A DNA stretch of 64,000 bases from an uncultured Clostridia bacterium (GCA_947632035.1 CANRNR010000005.1:10017-74016), one strand, 5' to 3'; counted from the first letter of the stretch, positions 25,784 to 54,245 are shown. Translations and numbers: made by a program. The notes: generated from the letters alone by a model not told the origin.

Positions 25784-28700
25784 ATGGAAGAAGTTACTGT
25801 GTTAAAGACTGTAAAACAAGTTTTTAAAGATTATAATACAAACAGCTTTGCTTTAAGTGAAGGTAAAGTTGCTTGTATTAATGTGTATAAAAAAACTGGT
25901 ACTTTGGAAATAAAGCTAAAGGCTACTTCTTCTATTCCTGTAAAGGATTTATTAGAGTTTGAAAAGTATTTGAGCAAGAGATTTGCTTTTAAAGAGATTG
26001 AAATAAAGATTGAAAACGAAAGAAAAAATACATTAAAAAATAATGAAAATATAAATGAAGAAGATATAAATGCAAATATTACAAATGAATCCAAAGAGAG
26101 CAATTTAGATGATGACATATCTAATAAAATTAAAAGCGAGTGGCCATATATTGTAGAATATATGGCATATAAGCATCCTTTGACGAAGGCATTATTAAAA
26201 GATAGCATAGTGGAAATAAATGAAAATAAGCTTACTGTAAAACTTGCAAGAAAAGGACAAGCTATTTTGTCTGCAAGAGGATTTGAAAAAATATTAGAAG
26301 CTAAGCTAGATGATTTATATTCAAAAAAATATATTGTTACATATAAAGAAGAAATTACAGAAGAAATGATAAGAAATTATGAAGAATATGCAAAAGAATT
26401 AGAAAAACAAGCAATTCTATCAGCTCAAACTGAAGCACAAAGAGAAGCTGAGCAAAGAGCAAATGATGCTTTAATAGAAGAAGGTTCAAATAGTTCTTCT
26501 AATAATAGCCAAAATAATTCTTCAAAAGGTAGTTCAAATAGCAATTCAAATAATGCTTCAAATAGCTCTTCAAATGGACAAGGTGGAGGGCAAAATGGTT
26601 CATCAGGTAATGGTGGGTCTAATGGTTCAAATAATGGAAATATTACAAATAGTGGCAATTCAGGAGATAAGTCTTCTGACTCAAATGAAGAAGAAAATTC
26701 ACCTTTAATTTTGGGTAGAAGTTTAAAAATAAAAGAAGAATTAAGCAAAATTTCAGATATAAGCATAGATAGTGGAAAAGTACTAATAGATGGGGAGATT
26801 CTAAATACAGATTCAAGAGAACTAAAATCAGGTAAGTTTTTAGTTACTTTTGATGTATATGATGGAACCACGACAATTACTTGTAAAGCTTTTGTTGAAG
26901 CAGATAAACATGATAGTGTTGTTAAAAGATTAAAAAGTGTAAAAGGTGTAAAAGTTAATGGAAATGCACAATTTGACCCTTTTGCAAAAGAATTAGGAAT
27001 AATTGCAAATGTAATTATTGAATCTACTGGAATTAAAAGAGAAACTAGAAGTGATGATGCAAAAGAAAAAAGAGTTGAACTTCATATGCATACACAAATG
27101 AGCCAGATGGATGGAATGACAGCAGTTACAGATTTACTTAAACGAGCTGTAAAATGGGGAATGAAGTCAATAGCAATTACAGATCACGGTGTAGTGCAAG
27201 CTTTTCCTGATGCACATAAATATTTAGAAAAAGCTAAGCCTGATTTGAAGGTTATTTATGGTGTGGAAGCATATTTAGCACCTGACAAAACACCATCAGT
27301 TTCTTTTTCAAGAGGACAAATTATTGAAGATGCAACTTATTGCGTACTAGACTTAGAAACAACAGGTCTTTCTTTTAGAACAGAGAAAATAACAGAAATA
27401 GGCATTATGAAGGTAAAAAATCATGAAGTAATAGAAGAATTTAGTACATTTGTAAATCCTGAAAAACCTATTCCTCAAAAAGTAGTAGAAGTAACTAATA
27501 TCACAGATGAAATGGTAAAAGATGCACCAACTATTGAAGAAGTTTTACCAAAAGTTCTAGAATTTGTAGGCGATAGCGTTCTAGTTGCACATAATGCAGA
27601 TTTTGATATAGGATTTTTAAAACATAATTGCTCTGAATTAGGCTTAAAATTAGGAAATACTTACATAGATACTTTGCGTTTAGCAAAAGATTTATTCCCA
27701 GAATATAAAAAGTACAAATTGGGAATCATTGCTGAAAATTTAGGCATTAAAGTAGAAGTCGCTCACAGAGCTTTAGATGATGTAGATACAACAGTTAAAG
27801 TATTTAATATTATGTTAGATATGCTAAAAGAAAAAGGAATATCAACCTTAGATGAGATAGATGAAAAATTAAGTGGAACAGCAGACTATAAGTCACTTCC
27901 AACTTACCATGCTATTATTTTAGCAAAAGATTATGTGGGATTAAGAAACTTATACAAACTAATTTCTATTTCTCACTTAGATTATTTTTACAAAAAACCT
28001 CGTATTTTAAAATCAATATATAAAAAATATTCTGAAGGTCTTATGCTTGGAAGTGCCTGTGAAGCAGGAGAGCTTTATAGAGCAATTATTGCAGGAAAAA
28101 CAGATGAAGAGTTAGAAGAAATCGCTTCAGATTATGATTATTTAGAAATTCAACCAAATGGAAATAATATGTTTATGGTTAGAAATGAAACTGTAAAATC
28201 AGTAGAAGATTTGCAAGATATTAACCGTAAAATTGTAGCCTTAGGCGAAAGATTGCAAAAACCAGTAGTTGCAACTTGTGATGTTCACTTTATGGATCCA
28301 CAAGATGAGGTTTATCGTAGAATTTTAATGGCAGGTCAAGGCTATGATGATGCAGACGAGCAAGCACCATTATATTTAAGAACAACAGAAGAAATGCTAA
28401 AAGAATTCGAATATTTAGGGGAAGAAAAAGCTTACGAAGTAGTTGTAACTAATACAAATAAAATTGCAGATATGTGCGAAAAAATAAGCCCAATTTCTCC
28501 AGAAAAATGCCCTCCATATATTGAAGGTTGTGAGCAAACAATCAAAGAAATTGCTTATAACAAAGCACATGAATTATATGGAGACCCATTACCAGAATTA
28601 GTACAAACAAGATTAGATAAAGAGCTAAATTCAATTATAAAAAATGGCTTCTCAGTTATGTACATTATTGCACAAAAACTAGTATGGAAATCAAATGAAG

Positions 28701-30397
28701 ATGGCTACATTGTAGGTTCAAGAGGTTCAGTAGGTTCTTCATTTGTTGCAAATATGACAGGTATTACAGAAGTAAATTCACTTCCACCACATTATAGATG
28801 CCCTAACTGTAAGTATTCAGACTTTACAGATTATGGTTATAAAAATGGATTTGATTTACCTGATAAAGATTGCCCAAAATGTGGTCATAAACTAGCAAAA
28901 GATGGTATGGATATTCCATTTGAAACTTTCTTAGGATTTGATGGAGATAAAGAGCCTGATATTGACTTAAACTTCTCAGGAGAATATCAAGCAAAAGCAC
29001 ATCGTTACACAGAAGTTATATTCGGAAAAGGAACCACCTTCAAAGCAGGAACAGTAGGTACAGTAGCAGATAAAACAGCTTATGGATATGTTAAAAAATA
29101 TTATGAAGAAAGAGGTATTCCAGTTAGCAATGCAGAAATTTTAAGGCTTTCACAAGGTTGTACTGGAATTAAAAGAACAACAGGACAGCACCCTGGTGGT
29201 ATTATAGTTGTACCAAAAGGAAGGGAGATATATGAATTTACACCAGTACAACATCCAGCAGATGACCCTAACTCAGACATTATAACAACACACTTTGATT
29301 ACCACTCAATAGACCAAAACCTATTAAAACTTGATATACTAGGTCATGATGATCCAACCATGATTCGTATGCTATATGATATAACAGGAATAGACCCAAC
29401 AAAAGTACCATTAGATGATAAAGACACAATGTCAATATTTGCATCTACTGAAATATTAGGTGTTACCCCAGAGCAAATACATTCAGAAGTTGGAACTTAT
29501 GGAATACCTGAATTTGGTACTAAATTCGTAAGAGGAATGTTAGTTGATACAAAACCAACAACATTTGAAGAGCTACTTCGTATTTCTGGTTTATCACATG
29601 GTACTGATGTATGGCTTAACAATGCACAAACCTTAATAGAAGAAGGAACAATTAAATTACAAGATGCAATATGTACTCGTGATGATATTATGCTTTACTT
29701 AATAAAACAAGGAATGCCACCAAAGCCAGCATTTAAAATAATGGAATTTGTTCGTAAAGGAAAACCATCAGCAGACCCAGAAAAATGGAAAGAATTTGAG
29801 CAAACAATGAGAGAATACAATATTCCAGAATGGTATATAGGCTCATGTAAGAAAATTAAGTATATGTTCCCAAAAGCTCATGCAGCAGCATATGTAACAA
29901 ACGCCTTCCGTATTGCTTGGTTTAAAGTACATAAACCAGCAGCATATTATACAGCCTTTTTCACAATTCGTGCAGATGAATTTGATAGCGATATTATGTG
30001 TTATGGTGTAGAAAAAGTAAAAAATAAAATGAAGGAAATTGATTTACAAGGAAATAGTGCTACAACTAAAGATAAAAATATGTATGCAATTCTAGAATTA
30101 GTTTTAGAGATGTATGAAAGAGGAATAACTTTCTTACCAATCGACCTTTATAAAAGTCATGCTACTAAATTTATAATGGAATCAGATACAGAAATAAGAC
30201 CACCTCTAAACAGCATTCCAGGTCTTGGAACTGTGGCAGCAGAGGGAATAGATGCAGCAAAAAAAGACGGAAAATTCATGTCAATAGACGATATGAGGAT
30301 TCGTTCTAAAATAGGAAAATCTGTAACTGACTTATTGGAAAAAGTAGGTTGCTTAAAAGGAATGAGCCAAAGCAATCAAATGAGCTTGTTTGGGTAG
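25784..30397 (+). CDS. polC: DNA polymerase III PolC-type (Gram-positive replicative polymerase) with a roughly 70-aa S/N/G-rich low-complexity insertion
   Basis: PHP domain HLHMHTQMS, DnaQ-like 3'-5' exonuclease (YCVLDLETTGL...HNADFD), zinc-finger cysteines and the polymerase core. 1537 aa, against the usual figure of about 1440. Confidence 0.95.
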   Translation: MEEVTVLKTVKQVFKDYNTNSFALSEGKVACINVYKKTGTLEIKLKATSSIPVKDLLEFEKYLSKRFAFKEIEIKIENERKNTLKNNENINEEDINANITNESKESNLDDDISNKIKSEWPYIVEYMAYKHPLTKALLKDSIVEINENKLTVKLARKGQAILSARGFEKILEAKLDDLYSKKYIVTYKEEITEEMIRNYEEYAKELEKQAILSAQTEAQREAEQRANDALIEEGSNSSSNNSQNNSSKGSSNSNSNNASNSSSNGQGGGQNGSSGNGGSNGSNNGNITNSGNSGDKSSDSNEEENSPLILGRSLKIKEELSKISDISIDSGKVLIDGEILNTDSRELKSGKFLVTFDVYDGTTTITCKAFVEADKHDSVVKRLKSVKGVKVNGNAQFDPFAKELGIIANVIIESTGIKRETRSDDAKEKRVELHMHTQMSQMDGMTAVTDLLKRAVKWGMKSIAITDHGVVQAFPDAHKYLEKAKPDLKVIYGVEAYLAPDKTPSVSFSRGQIIEDATYCVLDLETTGLSFRTEKITEIGIMKVKNHEVIEEFSTFVNPEKPIPQKVVEVTNITDEMVKDAPTIEEVLPKVLEFVGDSVLVAHNADFDIGFLKHNCSELGLKLGNTYIDTLRLAKDLFPEYKKYKLGIIAENLGIKVEVAHRALDDVDTTVKVFNIMLDMLKEKGISTLDEIDEKLSGTADYKSLPTYHAIILAKDYVGLRNLYKLISISHLDYFYKKPRILKSIYKKYSEGLMLGSACEAGELYRAIIAGKTDEELEEIASDYDYLEIQPNGNNMFMVRNETVKSVEDLQDINRKIVALGERLQKPVVATCDVHFMDPQDEVYRRILMAGQGYDDADEQAPLYLRTTEEMLKEFEYLGEEKAYEVVVTNTNKIADMCEKISPISPEKCPPYIEGCEQTIKEIAYNKAHELYGDPLPELVQTRLDKELNSIIKNGFSVMYIIAQKLVWKSNEDGYIVGSRGSVGSSFVANMTGITEVNSLPPHYRCPNCKYSDFTDYGYKNGFDLPDKDCPKCGHKLAKDGMDIPFETFLGFDGDKEPDIDLNFSGEYQAKAHRYTEVIFGKGTTFKAGTVGTVADKTAYGYVKKYYEERGIPVSNAEILRLSQGCTGIKRTTGQHPGGIIVVPKGREIYEFTPVQHPADDPNSDIITTHFDYHSIDQNLLKLDILGHDDPTMIRMLYDITGIDPTKVPLDDKDTMSIFASTEILGVTPEQIHSEVGTYGIPEFGTKFVRGMLVDTKPTTFEELLRISGLSHGTDVWLNNAQTLIEEGTIKLQDAICTRDDIMLYLIKQGMPPKPAFKIMEFVRKGKPSADPEKWKEFEQTMREYNIPEWYIGSCKKIKYMFPKAHAAAYVTNAFRIAWFKVHKPAAYYTAFFTIRADEFDSDIMCYGVEKVKNKMKEIDLQGNSATTKDKNMYAILELVLEMYERGITFLPIDLYKSHATKFIMESDTEIRPPLNSIPGLGTVAAEGIDAAKKDGKFMSIDDMRIRSKIGKSVTDLLEKVGCLKGMSQSNQMSLFG

Positions 30398-30406
30398 GTG
30401 ATATAT

Positions 30407-30691
30407 ATGAATATGGAAAATATATTTACAGTACAAAATATAATTATTTATTTTGTTGCGATTAATATAATTACATTTTTTGTAATGTGGCTTGATAAAA
30501 GAAAAGCAAAGAAAGGAAAATGGAGAATACCTGAAAATACTTTATTACTTTTAGTTTTATTAGGTGGAGGAATAGGTGGGATAGCAGGTATGTATACTTT
30601 TAGACATAAAACACAAAAAATGAAGTTTGTAATAGGTTTTCCTGTAATCCTAATTTGCGAAATTATATTGATTTTGAAGATTATACTTTAA
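30407..30691 (+). CDS. DUF1294-family small membrane protein
   Basis: WLDKRKAKKGKWRIPE...GGGIGGIAGMYTFRHKT is the DUF1294 signature as I recall it. Confidence 0.5.
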   Translation: MNMENIFTVQNIIIYFVAINIITFFVMWLDKRKAKKGKWRIPENTLLLLVLLGGGIGGIAGMYTFRHKTQKMKFVIGFPVILICEIILILKIIL

Positions 30692-30741
30692 AAAAATTAT
30701 AAAAAAAATATATGTATATTAATAAAATATTAAATTAACTT

Positions 30742-30776
30742 AAAAATTTCCTAGATTAAAAATCTAGGAAATTTTT
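30742..30776. terminator. Bidirectional terminator (AAAAATTTCCTAGATTAAAAATCTAGGAAATTTTT)
   Basis: Perfect 10-bp stem with A-run and T-run flanks. Confidence 0.7.
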
Positions 30777-31295
30777 AGAGTCTTTTTTCCATATCCAAAG
30801 GTCACGATCATTATCGCCGTAGTAAGGATAGCGAGGGTCGAGTTCAATTCTTACATTGTGAGATTTAAGCAACCTATATATATTTTGAATAATAGGCTGA
30901 TAATCTTTGGTAGCACAAAAGATTAAAGTTTCGCAATCCCAGTAGCAAGCCATTCCACATTTTTTTGCTATTTCAAACATTCCCTCAGGAATTCTTTCGC
31001 TACTGTATTTTAGGACTGAAAAATCTTTGTGTGTAAGAATTTTTAAATCAGATGGAGCCCTTCTTATAAATCCCATTGAGCCTATCATAAAGGCTTTTTG
31101 CAAAGGCATAATATCAATTTCCTGGTATATAAAATCTCGAGATTTTGCCAGGACAATTGATTTTATTTTTTGATTAAGCTGAGATTCATTAGGCAAACGG
31201 GATCTTATGTCTTTGACAGTAGAAAAAGAGTATCCACCTCCGTTTCCTTCAGCTTCAAATATGACCTCTTCAGATATGTGCGCTATGTCAATCAT
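30756..31295 (-). CDS. Hypothetical protein in a GC-elevated segment (possibly horizontally acquired)
   Basis: 179-aa ORF. The codon usage is visibly richer in G/C than neighbouring genes. No motif I can assign. Confidence 0.45.
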   Translation of the reverse strand: MIDIAHISEEVIFEAEGNGGGYSFSTVKDIRSRLPNESQLNQKIKSIVLAKSRDFIYQEIDIMPLQKAFMIGSMGFIRRAPSDLKILTHKDFSVLKYSSERIPEGMFEIAKKCGMACYWDCETLIFCATKDYQPIIQNIYRLLKSHNVRIELDPRYPYYGDNDRDLWIWKKDSKNFLDF

Positions 31296-31603
31296 AGCTT
31301 GTTCCTCCCAATAATTATTTCCTCATGTATTTTCTTAAAAAGTGGTATAGAGGGAAGAAAATTTAATGAAGATAATACTATTTTAACACAATTTACATAA
31401 TTTATCAATAGTGAGAAATGTATATATTTGACATAGTAGATAATAAATATATTTGAAATATAGGTAATAAATATGTTTAACATAAATGCAATAATATATT
31501 TTAAAGTTAATATAAAAGATAAATGGAAATATATGTAAAATATCAAAACTTAAAAATGACAATAATAAGTTTTCATAAAATAATAACAAATAATTTTTAA
31601 AAG

Positions 31604-31675
31604 TTATCCACAATTTTTAGTGCCTATTTATAGTTATTCACAAAGTTATCCACAATTTCCACAATACTGTGGAAA
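31604..31675. promoter_or_regulatory. Cluster of DnaA-box 9-mers: TTATCCACA at 31604 and 31646 (perfect), TTATTCACA at 31634 (one mismatch), and a TTCCACAATACTGTGGAA palindrome carrying two box-like half-sites
   Basis: Direct match to the Firmicute DnaA-box consensus TTATCCACA within a 630-bp gene-free AT-rich region. Confidence 0.55.
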
Positions 31676-31680
31676 AATAT

Positions 31681-51678: not shown

Positions 51679-52941
51679 ATGAAGTTTCAAAAAGAAGAAA
51701 ATACAAAAATACGTTATGAAAAAGATGGCATATATATAATGAATTACAGATATCAATCAAAAGATAAAATAACAGATTTAAAAGAAGAAGGAAAAATCTT
51801 TTATGATGCAATTTGTGGAAATGAAATAAACGATATTAGCAAGCTTCAAAAATTTATAGATAAAAAGTTTATAATACCAATTACTGAATATGATAGTCAT
51901 TTCATTGGTAAAACTACGGAGCACACTAGCTTACCAATATATATGACATTAGGAATTACTTCAAATTGCAATTATAATTGCAAACATTGTGGAAATGATT
52001 CAAGTATAAAAAAAGATACAGACTTAAAAAAGAGCGAAATTTATTCAATCATTGATGAAATGATTGATATGCAATTATTAAAATTAAATTTTACGGGAGG
52101 TGAGCCAACAACCAATAACGATTTACTTGATTATATAAGATATGCAAAAGGAAGAATTCCAAGAATAACATTAACAACTAATGGTAGTTTAATAGATAAA
52201 GACAAAGCAGAGGAGCTAAAAAAAGCAGGTCTTAATATGGCAAAGATTTCAATAGATGGTTTATCTAAATTTCATAACAAATTTAGAAACTGTGAATTTG
52301 CATATGAAAAAGCAATAGAAGCAATAAAAAATTTTCAGGAACAAAACATTGAAGTAAGAGTTCAATCTACATTAACTAAAGATAATCAAGATGACTTAAT
52401 AAAATTAATGGAAGTGCTTTCTAATTTAAAAATATCTCATCAAACCATAGTTCCAGTATGCCCTATAGGTAGAGCAGATAAAGATATGATGCTACTTAAA
52501 GAAGATTATAAGAAATTTATTGTGAGAATGTATAAAAAGGTAAAAGAATTAAATGAAAAAGGAACTTTAACACATTTCCAAATAAGACCTATATTTGGAG
52601 CAAAAGAATTATTTGATGATTCTATACAAACATCTTTTGAAACATTAAGTATTAAATATAGCTGTGAAGCCTTAAAAAATACTATGGAAATAAAGCCGAA
52701 TGGTGATGTAGTACCGTGTTCATTTTTAGATATTCCTATAGGAAATGTTAGAGAAAAGTCATTAAAAGAAATATGGACTGATGCTAAAAGCTATGAAATT
52801 AGAAAAATGTTTTCAAAAAATAATGAAAATGAAGAATGTAGAAAATGCAAGAAAAACAATATATGTAATGGTGGATGCATAGCAAACAAATATTATTATT
52901 ATAAAAAATTTGATAAAAAAGATCCTTATTGCTTTATATAA
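51679..52941 (+). CDS. Radical SAM enzyme with N-terminal RRE-like domain and C-terminal SPASM domain (RiPP maturase-like), first of a tandem pair
   Basis: CNYNCKHCGN (Cx3Cx2C), FTGGEPT, SPASM cysteines CSFLD...ECRKCKKNNICNGGCIANKYY, and N-terminal ...EKDGIYIMNYR... (PqqD-like). Confidence 0.75.
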   Translation: MKFQKEENTKIRYEKDGIYIMNYRYQSKDKITDLKEEGKIFYDAICGNEINDISKLQKFIDKKFIIPITEYDSHFIGKTTEHTSLPIYMTLGITSNCNYNCKHCGNDSSIKKDTDLKKSEIYSIIDEMIDMQLLKLNFTGGEPTTNNDLLDYIRYAKGRIPRITLTTNGSLIDKDKAEELKKAGLNMAKISIDGLSKFHNKFRNCEFAYEKAIEAIKNFQEQNIEVRVQSTLTKDNQDDLIKLMEVLSNLKISHQTIVPVCPIGRADKDMMLLKEDYKKFIVRMYKKVKELNEKGTLTHFQIRPIFGAKELFDDSIQTSFETLSIKYSCEALKNTMEIKPNGDVVPCSFLDIPIGNVREKSLKEIWTDAKSYEIRKMFSKNNENEECRKCKKNNICNGGCIANKYYYYKKFDKKDPYCFI

Positions 52942-52955
52942 GGTAGGAGGTAATA

Positions 52956-54245
52956 ATGTATAAAGAGTTGAGAAATATAGAAAAAAGGGAAGATGGTATA
53001 TATCTATTAAATAAATTAGGTCATGTAGCTAAAATACCTTTAGAATTAGAAGAGAATCTAAATAAATATGCAGTACTAAAAACAATTTCTGATGATACAC
53101 CTGAATTTATCTTAGAGCTTGCAGACATAGGACTATTGGAATATGAAAATTATACACCTAATGAAGACAAATTGTATTTTGATGATAGTATATTAAAAAG
53201 CAAAGATGATAAGCCAGTATATAAAGGTCCTATAATTGCTCATTTAGCAATAACTAATATGTGCAATATGAACTGTGATTATTGTTCAGTAAGGAATATG
53301 CACGGAAAAATAAAAACTGGTCTTTCAACAGAAGAATATAAAAAAATAATTGATAAACTTGTAGATATTGGAACATTTCAAATAGGCTTAACAGGAGGAG
53401 AGCCAACAACTAGAAAAGATTTAGTTGAATTAGTGAAATATGTAGCTAGCAAAAATGTTGCCTGTAACTTAACAACAAATGGATATGTTGTACCAGAAAA
53501 ATTAATAATTGAATTAAAAAATGCTGGTTTAACACAAGTTCAAATTTCATTAGATTCATATAAAAAAGAAGTTCACGAGAAATATAGAACAAAAGGTAGT
53601 TTCGATAGAGCAATAGAAACAGCAAAATTGTTTAAAAAACATGGATTCATTGTAGGAGTAGATACCGTTGTAACAAATAATAACATAGATGATATAGAAG
53701 ATTTTATGATATTTTTGGAAAAAAATAATTTTGATGGGCTAACTATAATAAAACTAAAACAGGGATATCTTGATTTAGAAACATTTAAAAAGGAAGTGCC
53801 TGAATATAATAAATATGCAGAATTAATAGATAAAATATGTAGATGGAAAGGAAAACTAGAAGTAACTATTGATTGCTCATCAGTAAATAATTTATGCAAA
53901 ACTTTAACTGAAAAGGAACAAAGCAAAATACATTCTGCTGGTTGTCCTGCTGGGCATACTCTTATTTCAATAGCACCAAATGGAGATATATATCCATGTG
54001 CAGCTTTAACAAATGAAAATTACAAAATTGGCAATATGCTAACAGATAATATAAAAGAATTATGGCAAACTAATAAAACTTTAAGAAAGTTAAGAGGAAT
54101 AAAAAATCACATTGAAGGAAAGTGTAAAAATTGTAAAAAAATTGATGTATGCAGAGGCGGATGTAGGGGAATAGCAGACAGTTTAAATGGAAAGCAATAT
54201 AGTAGTGATATAAATTGCAAATATACATATAAGGAGGTGATATAA
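52956..54245 (+). CDS. Radical SAM enzyme with N-terminal RRE-like domain and C-terminal SPASM domain, second of the tandem pair
   Basis: CNMNCDYCSV (Cx3Cx2C), LTGGEPT, SPASM CAALTNEN...KCKNCKKIDVCRGGCRGIA, and N-terminal REDGIYLLNKLGHVAKIP. Confidence 0.75.
   Translation: MYKELRNIEKREDGIYLLNKLGHVAKIPLELEENLNKYAVLKTISDDTPEFILELADIGLLEYENYTPNEDKLYFDDSILKSKDDKPVYKGPIIAHLAITNMCNMNCDYCSVRNMHGKIKTGLSTEEYKKIIDKLVDIGTFQIGLTGGEPTTRKDLVELVKYVASKNVACNLTTNGYVVPEKLIIELKNAGLTQVQISLDSYKKEVHEKYRTKGSFDRAIETAKLFKKHGFIVGVDTVVTNNNIDDIEDFMIFLEKNNFDGLTIIKLKQGYLDLETFKKEVPEYNKYAELIDKICRWKGKLEVTIDCSSVNNLCKTLTEKEQSKIHSAGCPAGHTLISIAPNGDIYPCAALTNENYKIGNMLTDNIKELWQTNKTLRKLRGIKNHIEGKCKNCKKIDVCRGGCRGIADSLNGKQYSSDINCKYTYKEVI

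What the first reader, a model, noticed from the sequence alone, without database searches (positions are those of the whole stretch)
31604..31675. DnaA-box cluster far from any dnaA/dnaN gene, in a 630-bp gene-free AT-rich region
The cluster holds two perfect TTATCCACA boxes, one single-mismatch box, and a TTCCACAATACTGTGGAA palindrome carrying two box-like half-sites, all within about 70 bp. Perfect boxes contain three C residues and should be rare by chance at 28% GC. The cluster sits between a GC-elevated gene of unknown function on the minus strand (30756-31295) and the rSAM gene. Possible roles are a DnaA-box cluster that titrates DnaA or represses a promoter, a DnaA-regulated promoter, or the replication origin of an integrated or degraded plasmid or ICE.
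Basis: partly seen in the sequence, partly recalled or inferred. Interest (0 to 1): 0.55.

Follow-up and report, generated by a model that had tools for sequence, protein, structure and literature searches.

The report
Conserved origin-like DnaA-box cluster outside oriC
A roughly 200-bp non-coding module between polC and uvrA in uncultured gut Clostridia carries four to five DnaA binding sites and six evenly phased TGTAA repeats, stays put while the genes on both sides change, and copies the DnaA-box grammar of the replication origin without its unwinding part, so it is most likely a DnaA-binding control site and not an origin.

Summary
Window 31604-31676 holds two perfect TTATCCACA boxes, TTATTCACA, ATTTCCACA and an inverted TTTTCCACA. 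No shuffle out of 300 reached this density.

The module of boxes plus repeats recurs in every relative I could fetch, three groups with nine independent loci. It always lies downstream of polC-DUF1294, while both neighbouring genes vary (rSAM, YkuD, glyQS, an orphan gene). Boxes 1-4 and the GTAA cores are 90-100% conserved. Spacers are 57-75% conserved.

In about 225 kb from this group, 27 perfect boxes lie in this intergenic region and one lies elsewhere.

It is not the chromosomal origin:
- GC skew and gene strand do not switch.
- There is no dnaA or dnaN within about 42 kb on either side.
- There are no DnaA-trios.

Three bona fide oriC regions of related gut Clostridia show the same grammar next to dnaA: tandem boxes, an inverted box, then TGTAAH 11-mers.

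Best reading: a non-origin DnaA-box cluster (DBC, datA/DARS-like kind) that also binds a second factor. The repeats fit the WalR/OmpR-type consensus.

Plasmid or ICE origin, small RNA and chance are disfavoured. This is a new member of a known kind and of moderate interest.

The parts
31561..31603 (+). Conserved AT-rich leader of the module (AATAATAAGTTTTCATAAAATAATAACAAATAATTTTTAAAAG). Its core is GTT(T/A)(T/C)CATAA ... A(A/T)AATAAT ... AAAAG. Binding partner unknown.
   Evidence: 27 of 43 columns are invariant in 10 sequences from 3 lineage groups. No convincing sigma-70 promoter is conserved in it (and inspection).
31604..31612 (+). DnaA box 1, perfect TTATCCACA.
   Evidence: 9 of 9 columns invariant in alignment A2. 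The spacing to box 3 is 42 bp in all lineages except L266 and L268, where it is 43 bp.
31613..31633 (.). Variable 21-bp spacer between box 1 and box 2.
   Evidence: Only 2 of 21 columns are invariant, mean column identity 0.71. This contrast with the boxes is the phylogenetic footprint.
31634..31642 (+). DnaA box 2, TTATTCACA (1 mismatch). It is TTGTTCACA in the glyQS clade.
   Evidence: 8 of 9 columns invariant.
31646..31654 (+). DnaA box 3, perfect TTATCCACA, 3 bp (AAG) after box 2.
   Evidence: 9 of 9 columns invariant.
31655..31663 (+). DnaA box 4, ATTTCCACA (2 mismatches), abutting box 3. It is also the left arm of the palindrome.
   Evidence: 7 of 9 columns invariant. It is a perfect TTATCCACA in L260 and L262. 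The geometry box, 3 bp, box, 0 bp, box equals that of the box array in front of the DnaA-trios in the dnaA-dnaN spacer of L054 and L293.
31668..31676 (-). DnaA box 5, TTTTCCACA on the minus strand (1 mismatch). It is the right arm of the palindrome and lies 4 bp from box 4, with the CACA ends facing each other.
   Evidence: It is a perfect inverted box in L260 and L262 and ATATCCACA in L264. In the glyQS clade it is replaced by a direct degenerate box.
31685..31712 (+). First triplet of phased repeats, TGTAAA-N5-TGTAAT-N5-TGTAAC (11-bp period).
   Evidence: TGTAA cores are 98-100% conserved and the bases between them 72-75%. Each adjacent pair is an exact match to TGTWAH-N5-TGTWAH.
31727..31754 (+). 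Second triplet, TGTAAA-N5-TGTAAT-N5-TGTAAC, 42 bp (4 helical turns) after the first, so all six cores lie on one face of the helix.
   Evidence: Cores are 90-100% conserved and the bases between them 57-60%. The same 0/11/22/42/53/64 phasing is seen in L004.
31764..31792 (+). Predicted promoter of the rSAM operon (TTGTTA-17-TAAAAT), just downstream of the repeat array. It is specific to this lineage and is not part of the conserved module.
   Evidence: 9 of 12 match. Sequence conservation stops at about 31755.

Best explanation
This is a non-origin DnaA-box cluster: a chromosomal landing pad for the initiator DnaA, of the same kind as the B. subtilis DBCs and E. coli datA/DARS.

**Proposed mechanism.**
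- Inferred: the two consensus boxes (1 and 3, four helical turns apart) nucleate DnaA. The weaker boxes 2, 4 and 5 then fill cooperatively. This gives the same box, 3 bp, box, 0 bp, box oligomer geometry that precedes the DnaA-trios at the true origin of related bacteria.
- Shown: no DnaA-trios are found next to the boxes (the 12%-GC TGTAAH array has no tested unwinding role), and neither strand bias nor GC skew switches here. Inferred from this: the complex is a dead end for unwinding. It sequesters or modulates DnaA, and it may secondarily tune whichever promoter lies downstream.
- Shown: six TGTAAH cores lie directly next to the boxes at 11-bp phase on one helical face. Inferred: they bind a second factor. 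By sequence this is most likely an OmpR-family response regulator of the WalR type.
- Shown: the same box-plus-TGTAAH grammar sits immediately upstream of dnaA in three bona fide oriC regions of related gut Clostridia. Inferred: the module works as a decoy or extra copy of the dnaA-proximal control region.

**Status of the evidence.** The sites, their conservation, their autonomy from neighbouring genes, and the non-origin status are shown. DnaA occupancy, the identity of the second factor, and the effect on initiation are inferred.
For: 1. **Density beyond chance.**
   - 4 boxes with up to 1 mismatch lie in 73 bp; none of 300 shuffles reached this.
   - 27 perfect boxes lie in this intergenic region against 1 elsewhere in about 225 kb of related sequence.
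2. **Phylogenetic footprint.** Boxes 1-4 have 92-100% column identity and the TGTAA cores 90-100%. Spacers have 57-75%.
3. **Autonomy from neighbouring genes.** The module always lies after polC-(unknown)-DUF1294.
   - The gene on the left is an orphan ORF, DUF1294, or a 412-aa or 778-aa gene.
   - The gene on the right is rSAM, YkuD or glyQS.
   - rSAM orthologues at other loci have no boxes.
4. **The degenerate palindrome arms are real boxes.** They are perfect TTATCCACA/TGTGGATAA in L260 and L262.
5. **Not an origin.**
   - GC skew is +0.04 to +0.30 in every 2-kb bin.
   - Almost all genes are on the + strand on both sides.
   - The same holds 10 kb beyond each end, with no dnaA or dnaN.
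   - No DnaA-trios are found in any module intergenic region, whereas the control L054 and L293 dnaA-dnaN spacers show box array, GCACC, (TAC)4-5, then an AT-rich run.
6. **Same grammar at true origins.**
   - L054, L078 and L293 (jag-yidC-yidD-rnpA-rpmH, then dnaA on the opposite strand) have box, RAG, box, N4, inverted box, then TGTAAH-N5-(T/A)GTAA right next to dnaA.
   - An identical 24-mer, AAATATTACAAAAATATTACAAAA, is shared by the L054 oriC, the L078 oriC, and the L004 and L266 module intergenic regions.
7. **Repeat array matches the WalR consensus.**
   - The adjacent core pairs in the array give four exact matches to the B. subtilis WalR consensus TGTWAH-N5-TGTWAH.
   - Four of the six matches in the window are here (consensus cited in bioRxiv 10.1101/2022.04.01.486798).
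   - In S. aureus, WalR sites lie in the rpmH-dnaA spacer and control dnaA (PMC10746227).
8. **Precedent for the kind.** B. subtilis has six DBCs outside oriC, and deleting them gives early initiation (PMC3245932).
Against: - No binding or functional data exist; everything rests on sequence and comparison.
- The distance to oriC is unknown. B. subtilis DBCs are mostly oriC-proximal.
- I could not fetch the oriC of the same genomes. The three comparator origins come from other gut Clostridia of unknown relatedness (one search found no shared contigs).
- The second factor is unidentified. TGTAA-type 11-mers also occur in AT-rich phage contigs without DnaA boxes, so the WalR assignment is only a sequence fit.
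- In some lineages extra boxes lie close to the downstream promoter (L262 8634; L266 7698 and 7718). A transcriptional role therefore cannot be separated from a titration role.
- The TGTAAH array is 12% GC and lies where a DUE would lie relative to the boxes, so unwinding is not strictly excluded.
Confidence: 0.62

Rival explanations
1. It is a DnaA-regulated (and response-regulator-regulated) promoter region. In this reading the module exists to control transcription of the gene downstream (here rSAM and the 316-aa membrane protein) in response to replication or envelope status. DnaA would act as a transcription factor and the TGTAAH array as class-I activator sites, as OmpR acts at ompF.
For: - A predicted promoter, TTGTTA-17-TAAAAT, starts 10 bp after the sixth repeat. 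The array would then span about -115 to -47.
- In other lineages extra boxes lie near the downstream promoter (L262 8634; L264 8681; L266 7698 and 7718, just upstream of the glyQS -35).
- Some B. subtilis DBCs regulate neighbouring genes (PMC3245932).
- In L262-L265 the downstream gene is a cell-wall L,D-transpeptidase, a plausible Wal-type target.
Against: - The downstream gene differs between lineages (rSAM, YkuD, glyQS with its own T-box leader) while the module is constant.
- rSAM orthologues elsewhere have no boxes.
- No promoter is conserved at a fixed distance from the module. Conservation ends at the last repeat.
- Downstream genes have their own strong promoters 100-250 bp away.
Confidence: 0.2
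2. It is a cryptic, secondary or relic replication origin. DnaA would assemble on the box array and the adjacent 12%-GC TGTAAH 11-mers would serve as the unwinding element, like the 13-mers next to box R1 in E. coli oriC.
For: - Same-direction boxes are followed directly by three AT-rich 11-mers containing TT[G/A]T.
- The glyQS-clade intergenic regions have two opposed box arrays, like an rpmH-dnaA spacer.
- The grammar is shared with true oriC regions.
Against: - There is no switch of GC skew or gene strand at the site or within about 42 kb.
- No DnaA-trios or GC clamp are present, unlike the dnaA-dnaN spacers of L054 and L293.
- The conserved bases are the GTAA cores and not the AT-richness, which points to duplex recognition by a protein.
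- Related organisms have a canonical rpmH-dnaA-dnaN origin.
Confidence: 0.07
3. The palindrome plus T-run is an intrinsic terminator or the 3' end of a small RNA, and the 'boxes' are parts of an RNA element.
For: - The terminator scan flags 31656-31675 followed by AATATTTTTT.
- Within the uvrA clade the two arms change together, with 2 compensatory pairs; 1 of 500 shuffles reached the covariation score.
- A T-run follows in all lineages.
Against: - All six core pairs are broken in 4 of 10 sequences (the glyQS clade), where a direct degenerate box replaces the inverted arm.
- No conserved promoter lies upstream (inspection of A2).
- No Rfam match even at E<=1.
- Boxes 1-3 and the repeat array lie outside the hairpin and are better conserved than it is.
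- DUF1294 has its own terminator in the window (30740-30778) and in L004.
Confidence: 0.04
4. It is the replication origin of an integrated or degraded plasmid, ICE or phage.
For: - The genes immediately around the module are variable and often orphans: the 179-aa ORF, the 412-aa gene, an Abi_2 gene in L260, and the 600-836-aa genes.
- Tandem DnaA boxes are common in viral contigs.
Against: - No rep, integrase, relaxase or partition genes are present.
- No PHROG hit for the neighbouring ORFs.
- No similar sequence in 72,556 plasmids or 50,697 phages apart from a 55-bp AT-rich chance match.
- The module keeps the same chromosomal position between polC and the next housekeeping gene in three lineage groups.
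Confidence: 0.02

Closest known systems
B. subtilis DnaA-box clusters outside oriC (six DBCs; Okumura et al. 2012, PMC3245932)
   Same: - An intergenic cluster of consensus DnaA boxes in a Bacillota chromosome, away from the unwinding site.
- It lies next to different genes in different species.
- It may both titrate DnaA and affect neighbouring promoters.
   Different: - No ChIP or deletion data exist here.
- The distance to oriC is unknown.
- This module has a rigid conserved architecture (42-bp, 12-bp and 9-bp box spacings) plus a six-unit phased repeat array. To my knowledge that is not described for the B. subtilis DBCs.
E. coli datA and DARS1/DARS2 (PMC6868365, PMC5742627)
   Same: - A short non-coding locus with a few DnaA boxes in fixed geometry.
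- An oppositely oriented box pair next to a consensus box. DARS boxes I and II are opposed with a 5-bp gap; here boxes 4 and 5 are opposed with a 4-bp gap.
- Adjacent sites for accessory DNA-binding proteins. E. coli uses IHF and Fis; here the TGTAAH array.
   Different: - No sequence homology.
- The relative direction of the opposed boxes in DARS was not compared.
- The opposed pair is absent in the glyQS clade.
- Nucleotide hydrolysis or exchange activity is untested.
- These systems are known only in Proteobacteria.
The dnaA-proximal DnaA-box cluster of oriC (rpmH-dnaA spacer, the dnaA autoregulatory region) in related gut Clostridia (L054, L078, L293)
   Same: - Tandem boxes with a 3-bp RAG spacer, then an inverted box, then TGTAAH 11-mers.
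- An identical 24-mer of reverse 11-mers is shared with some module intergenic regions.
   Different: - No dnaA gene is attached.
- The module has an extra upstream box 1, an extra box 4, and a second repeat triplet.
- It is located downstream of polC.
WalR (YycF/VicR) binding sites, including those upstream of S. aureus dnaA (PMC10746227; consensus TGTWAH-N5-TGTWAH cited in bioRxiv 10.1101/2022.04.01.486798)
   Same: - Direct hexamer repeats at 11-bp period that match the consensus exactly.
- They lie next to DnaA boxes, as in the S. aureus rpmH-dnaA spacer.
   Different: - Three contiguous half-sites occur twice, instead of single pairs.
- No WalR gene from this genome was identified.
- PhoP-type (TTHACA) and other OmpR-family regulators fit about as well.
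- Binding is untested.

Membership tests
Non-origin DnaA-box cluster (DBC, B. subtilis sense) | Several consensus or near-consensus DnaA boxes clustered in an intergenic region outside the unwinding origin | tested here: met
   Five boxes lie in 73 bp, two of them perfect. None of 300 shuffles reached this density. 27 perfect boxes lie in the module regions against 1 elsewhere in 225 kb.
Non-origin DnaA-box cluster (DBC, B. subtilis sense) | Stable DnaA occupancy in vivo (ChIP) and an effect of deletion on initiation timing | not testable with these tools
   Needs ChIP-seq and genetics, or at least purified DnaA footprinting.
Non-origin DnaA-box cluster (DBC, B. subtilis sense) | Location near oriC (typical, not obligatory) | tested here: inconclusive
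   No dnaA or dnaN within about 42 kb on either side. The contigs do not reach the origin. yabP, yabQ and divIC lie 30 kb downstream.
Chromosomal replication origin (oriC, Bacillota type) | Switch of GC skew and of gene orientation at the site | tested here: not met
   Skew is positive in all 32 bins. Genes are on the + strand on both sides. The same holds in the 10-kb extensions and in nine related loci.
Chromosomal replication origin (oriC, Bacillota type) | Basal unwinding system: box array followed by a GC clamp, DnaA-trios and an AT-rich DUE | tested here: not met
   No runs of TA[C/G] or TAN trios in any module intergenic region. The positive controls L054 and L293 show GCACC-(TAC)4-5 followed by an AT-rich run.
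Chromosomal replication origin (oriC, Bacillota type) | Adjacency to dnaA/dnaN (usual in Bacillota) | tested here: not met
   Pfam and NCBIfam annotation of the window and both extensions shows none.
DARS / datA-type DnaA-modulating locus (E. coli) | Core of three boxes with one oppositely oriented pair (DARS), or boxes plus an IHF site (datA), that changes the nucleotide state of DnaA | tested here: inconclusive
   An opposed pair (boxes 4 and 5, 4-bp gap) lies next to consensus box 3 in the uvrA clade, but is absent in the glyQS clade. The biochemical activity is not testable here.
WalR / OmpR-family response-regulator operator | Direct repeats TGTWAH-N5-TGTWAH | tested here: met
   Four overlapping exact matches at 31685-31754, out of 6 in the window (1.66 expected by chance). 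The cores are conserved in 10 sequences.
WalR / OmpR-family response-regulator operator | A cognate regulator encoded in the genome that binds the site | not tested
   No response-regulator gene lies in the window. WalRK is reported in all Firmicutes (bioRxiv 10.1101/2022.04.01.486798).
Intrinsic terminator / small RNA | A hairpin plus U-run conserved with covariation, and an upstream promoter | tested here: not met
   The hairpin pairs in 6 of 10 sequences only and is broken in the glyQS clade. There is no conserved promoter and no Rfam hit.
Plasmid / ICE / phage origin | Linked rep, integrase, mobilisation or partition genes, or similarity to known mobile elements | tested here: not met
   (no such genes). 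(no plasmid or phage homologue).

The most novel reading that the evidence does not exclude
The module is a Clostridial counterpart of datA/DARS. It would be a dedicated chromosomal locus where DnaA oligomerises on an origin-mimicking box array together with an array of an essential envelope-sensing response regulator (WalR type). Cell-wall or growth status would then set how much active DnaA is free to fire oriC. The same two-factor grammar at the dnaA-proximal origin region would make this a family-wide circuit coupling envelope homeostasis to replication initiation.
Probability: 0.15. Interest if true: 0.7.

Novelty: new member of a known kind. Interest (0 to 1): 0.45.

Why it matters
- DnaA-box clusters outside the origin have been shown to matter in only a few model bacteria (E. 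coli datA and DARS, the B. subtilis DBCs, Streptomyces).
- Comparative evidence alone shows here that a family of uncultured gut Clostridia keeps one such cluster under strong purifying selection, at a fixed chromosomal address, while the surrounding genes turn over.
- That gives a concrete, compact (about 200 bp) candidate for a DnaA control locus in anaerobic Bacillota.
- It also exposes a second, unidentified partner site, the phased TGTAAH 11-mers, which also flanks the dnaA-proximal origin boxes in related bacteria.
- This makes the proposed WalR-DnaA link (S. aureus) testable in a distant lineage.
- On the practical side, it is a clear false-positive trap for oriC predictors that rely on DnaA-box density.

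Tried and rejected
1. **Collection scans with TTATYCACAAAGTTATCCACA** (metagenome and viral). More than 120 hits each, from 27-64% GC organisms and phages. The pattern is just a generic tandem DnaA-box pair and not specific to the module. No further module homologues were found among those loci. It did give the oriC comparators L054 and L078.
2. **rSAM-anchored loci**. Only the closest lineages (L001, L002, L004) keep the module, and four others at 77-79% identity lack it. This rejects a link to rSAM.
3. **Search for the origin of the same genomes.** I used DnaA homologues of L054. The first look-up of the leftmost window ORF failed.
4. **RNA readings.** Rfam gave nothing at gathering threshold or at E<=1. 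The hairpin is not conserved across clades.
5. **DnaA-trio / DUE reading.** No trios were found.
6. **Conserved promoter inside or just upstream of the module.** Candidates are not conserved in L262, L264 or L266.
7. **Mobile-element reading.** Plasmid and phage BLAST were negative. PHROGs were negative.
8. **The 179-aa neighbour.** No Pfam, NCBIfam or PHROG hit, and only 3 clusters in 5.8 billion proteins. It is absent in most module-bearing lineages, so it is not part of the element.
9. **The 22-mer ATATTACAAAAATATTACAAAA in viral contigs**. It is found without DnaA boxes, so it does not by itself mark DnaA loci.

Full report
**1.

Reading window 31100-32200 shows the following sites:
- Box1: TTATCCACA at 31604-31612.
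- Box2: TTATTCACA at 31634-31642.
- Box3: TTATCCACA at 31646-31654.
- The palindrome TTTCCACAATACTGTGGAAA at 31656-31675. It reads as Box4 (ATTTCCACA, 31655-31663, + strand) and Box5 (TTTTCCACA, 31668-31676, - strand).

The 17-mer AAAGTTATCCACAATTT occurs twice, exactly 42 bp apart.

The statistics are as follows:
- The 64-kb window has only three perfect boxes, against 0.8 expected.
- Boxes with up to one mismatch are at background level overall: 24 found, 22 expected.
- Four of them fall within 73 bp here. None of 300 dinucleotide-preserving shuffles reached four in 80 bp, and one shuffle had two perfect boxes in 80 bp.

The gene-free region 31296-31928 is 633 bp with 19% GC.

**2.

Two triplets of TGTAAH lie immediately after the boxes. 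The cores start at 31685, 31696 and 31707, then at 31727, 31738 and 31749. Each triplet reads TGTAAA-N5-TGTAAT-N5-TGTAAC.
- The triplets are 42 bp apart, so all six cores lie on one face of the helix.
- GTAA-N7-GTAA-N7-GTAA occurs only here in the window, with 0.04 expected.

**3. Context and organism**

The gene order is:
- pyrH, frr, uppS, cdsA, rseP, polC (25784-30397), DUF1294 (30398-30691);
- a 179-aa orphan ORF on the minus strand (30756-31295);
- the intergenic region;
- a radical-SAM/SPASM gene (31929-33299) and a 316-aa membrane protein;
- uvrA (34362-37187), a TPR gene, cmk, murD, then secA and further genes.

This is an ordinary chromosome. The closest public records are MAGs of uncultured Clostridia from rabbit gut.

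**4. It is not the chromosomal origin**

- GC skew is positive in all 32 bins of 2 kb.
- Nearly all genes are on the + strand on both sides.
- The 10 kb beyond each end of the window shows the same strand and skew and no dnaA or dnaN.

**5. Conservation is the key result**

I fetched three sets of related loci:
- **rSAM-anchored loci.** The module is present in L001, L002 and L004 (rSAM 79% identical in L004). It is absent upstream of four other rSAM orthologues of similar divergence that lie in other genomic contexts.
- **DUF1294-anchored loci, uvrA clade.** L260/L261, L262/L263 and L264/L265 have the order cdsA-rseP-polC-(600-836-aa gene)-DUF1294 ... uvrA. The gene after the module is rSAM or a YkuD L,D-transpeptidase.
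- **DUF1294-anchored loci, glyQS clade.** L266-L269 have polC-DUF1294-(778-aa gene) ... glyQS with a T-box leader.

In every one of these lineages the module is present downstream of DUF1294, while the genes on both sides of it differ.

In a 10-sequence alignment (A2) the column identities are:

| Element | Column identity |
|---|---|
| Box1 | 100% |
| Box3 | 100% |
| Box2 | 96% |
| Box4 | 92% |
| Six TGTAA cores | 90-100% |
| Box1-Box2 spacer | 71% |
| Bases between the cores | 57-75% |

Further points:
- In L260 and L262 the palindrome is made of two perfect boxes, TTATCCACAATAATGTGGATAA. The degenerate arms in the window are therefore real DnaA-box derivatives.
- Across about 225 kb of sequence from this group, 27 perfect boxes lie in this intergenic region and one lies elsewhere.

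**6. Comparison with real origins**

The generic scan happened to bring in two true origin regions of low-GC gut Clostridia, L054 and L078. A DnaA-anchored look-up gave a third, L293. All three have jag-yidC-yidD-rnpA-rpmH divergent from dnaA-dnaN.
- **Next to dnaA.** All three show TTATCCACA-RAG-TTATCCACA-N4-inverted box, followed at once by TGTAAH-N5-(T/A)GTAA repeats.
- **Shared 24-mer.** At the rpmH end, L054 and L078 have three inverted boxes followed by AAATATTACAAAAATATTACAAAA. This 24-mer is found identically in the module intergenic regions of L004 and L266.
- **dnaA-dnaN spacers of L054 and L293.** These show the classical unwinding system: CTTTCCACA-TAG-TTATCCACA-G-TTTCCACA, then GCACC, then (TAC)4-5, then an AT-rich run.

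The module's Box2-Box3-Box4 array has the same box, 3 bp, box, 0 bp, box geometry. No module intergenic region has DnaA-trios. The module therefore speaks the origin's DnaA grammar but lacks the part that opens DNA.

**7. The repeats**

- The adjacent core pairs give four exact matches to the B. subtilis WalR consensus TGTWAH-N5-TGTWAH, quoted in bioRxiv 10.1101/2022.04.01.486798. That paper also states that WalRK occurs in all Firmicutes.
- Four of the six matches in the window are in the module, against 1.66 expected for the whole window.
- In S. aureus, WalR sites (TGTHH-N6-WGTNDD) lie in the rpmH-dnaA spacer and control dnaA (PMC10746227).
- From my own knowledge, PhoP-type and other OmpR-family regulators recognise similar 11-bp direct repeats.
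- The assignment is therefore a sequence fit and not an identification. The same 11-mers also occur in AT-rich phage contigs without DnaA boxes.

**8. The palindrome**

It looks like a terminator: a hairpin followed by a T-run. Inside the uvrA clade its arms change together, with two compensatory pairs. In the glyQS clade the inverted arm is replaced by a direct degenerate box and all core pairs are broken. There is no conserved promoter upstream and no Rfam match. An RNA role is unlikely to be the main function. The concerted change of the arms remains unexplained.

**9. Mobile-element origin**

There are no rep, integrase or mobilisation genes and no PHROG hits. No similar sequence was found in plasmid or phage collections. 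The chromosomal position is fixed. This reading is rejected.

**10. Verdict**

The finding is a real and strongly conserved non-origin DnaA-box cluster. It is of the kind known from B. subtilis (six DBCs, whose deletion gives early initiation; PMC3245932). It also resembles E. coli datA and DARS, where boxes in fixed geometry combine with accessory-protein sites, and where DARS boxes I and II are opposed with a 5-bp gap (PMC6868365).

The most likely mechanism is as follows:
- DnaA nucleates on the two consensus boxes and fills the weaker ones.
- This forms an origin-like but non-productive oligomer that sequesters or modulates DnaA.
- A second factor sits on the phased TGTAAH array.
- Effects on whichever promoter lies downstream are possible.

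Occupancy, the partner and the physiological effect are inferred and not shown. I file it as a new member of a known kind. The more novel possibility is a datA/DARS-like locus that couples a WalR-type regulator to DnaA, to which I give a probability of about 0.15.

Noticed in passing
window 31848-31931: The rSAM gene has an unusual leader. The only Shine-Dalgarno-like sequence (GAAAGGGG, 31848-31855) lies about 74 nt before the ATG at 31929. A hairpin at 31856-31919 (outer stem GTTAGCTT/AAGCTAAC; -13.9 kcal/mol, z -3.0) would bring the two to about 11 nt apart. It is kept in L001 and L002 but not in L004, which has a normal SD.
   Followed up: partly
window 33283-34233: A 316-aa membrane protein is translationally coupled to the rSAM/SPASM gene (its start overlaps the rSAM stop). 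It ends in a Gly/Tyr-rich and Cys-rich tail, GGGYYGGGYYRGCVHSSCACACAHSSCAHSSCACACAGS. It has no Pfam, NCBIfam or PHROG hit. It could be a partner or substrate of the rSAM enzyme.
   Followed up: partly
window 30756-31295 (-): The 179-aa ORF next to the cluster is an orphan: only 3 clusters (59-98% identical) in 5.8 billion proteins and no family hit. It is absent from L004 and L260-L269, so it is a recent insertion beside the module. Its GC is 34%, against 27% for the window.
   Followed up: yes
window 48667-48748 (+): Rfam skipping-rope RNA (RF02924), 68.8 bits, just after secA.
   Followed up: no
window 62983-62999 (+): The only other intergenic exact TGTWAH-N5-TGTWAH match in the window lies between yabQ and divIC. 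This is a plausible site for a Wal-type regulator upstream of a division gene.
   Followed up: no
window 34276-34321: uvrA has its own promoter (TTGACT 34293-98, 17-bp spacer, TATAAT 34316-21). A box-like ATTTCCACA (34276-84) lies 8 nt upstream of the -35. No LexA-type GAAC-N4-GTTC site is visible.
   Followed up: no
L266:7289-8020, L267:9841-10520, L268, L269: In the glyQS clade the intergenic region is a fuller mimic of an rpmH-dnaA spacer. After the module come a conserved TGTCGAA (a Spo0A-box-like heptamer), reverse 11-mers (ATATTACAAAAATATTACAAAA), and two inverted DnaA boxes 13 nt upstream of the glyQS -35. A glycine T-box leader follows.
   Followed up: partly
L270-L287 (IMG/VR contigs): The 22-mer ATATTACAAAAATATTACAAAA occurs in 18 low-GC viral contigs without DnaA boxes. 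It is often extended to 3-5 tandem 11-mers. In L275 and L278 it lies right beside a divergent repressor-type promoter.
   Followed up: partly
L004:6869-9181, L260:6189-7994, L262:5467-7977, L265:6162-7952: A 600-836-aa gene of unknown function, with only faint HTH/GerE/TnsD hits, sits between polC and DUF1294 in most relatives. It is missing in the window, where DUF1294 abuts polC.
   Followed up: no
window 51679-54245: Two further adjacent radical-SAM/SPASM genes (420 and 429 aa) lie 20 kb downstream. The window therefore carries three such maturase-like genes.
   Followed up: no
window 30740-30778: A perfect 18-bp-stem bidirectional terminator lies between the convergent DUF1294 and 179-aa genes.
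   Followed up: no
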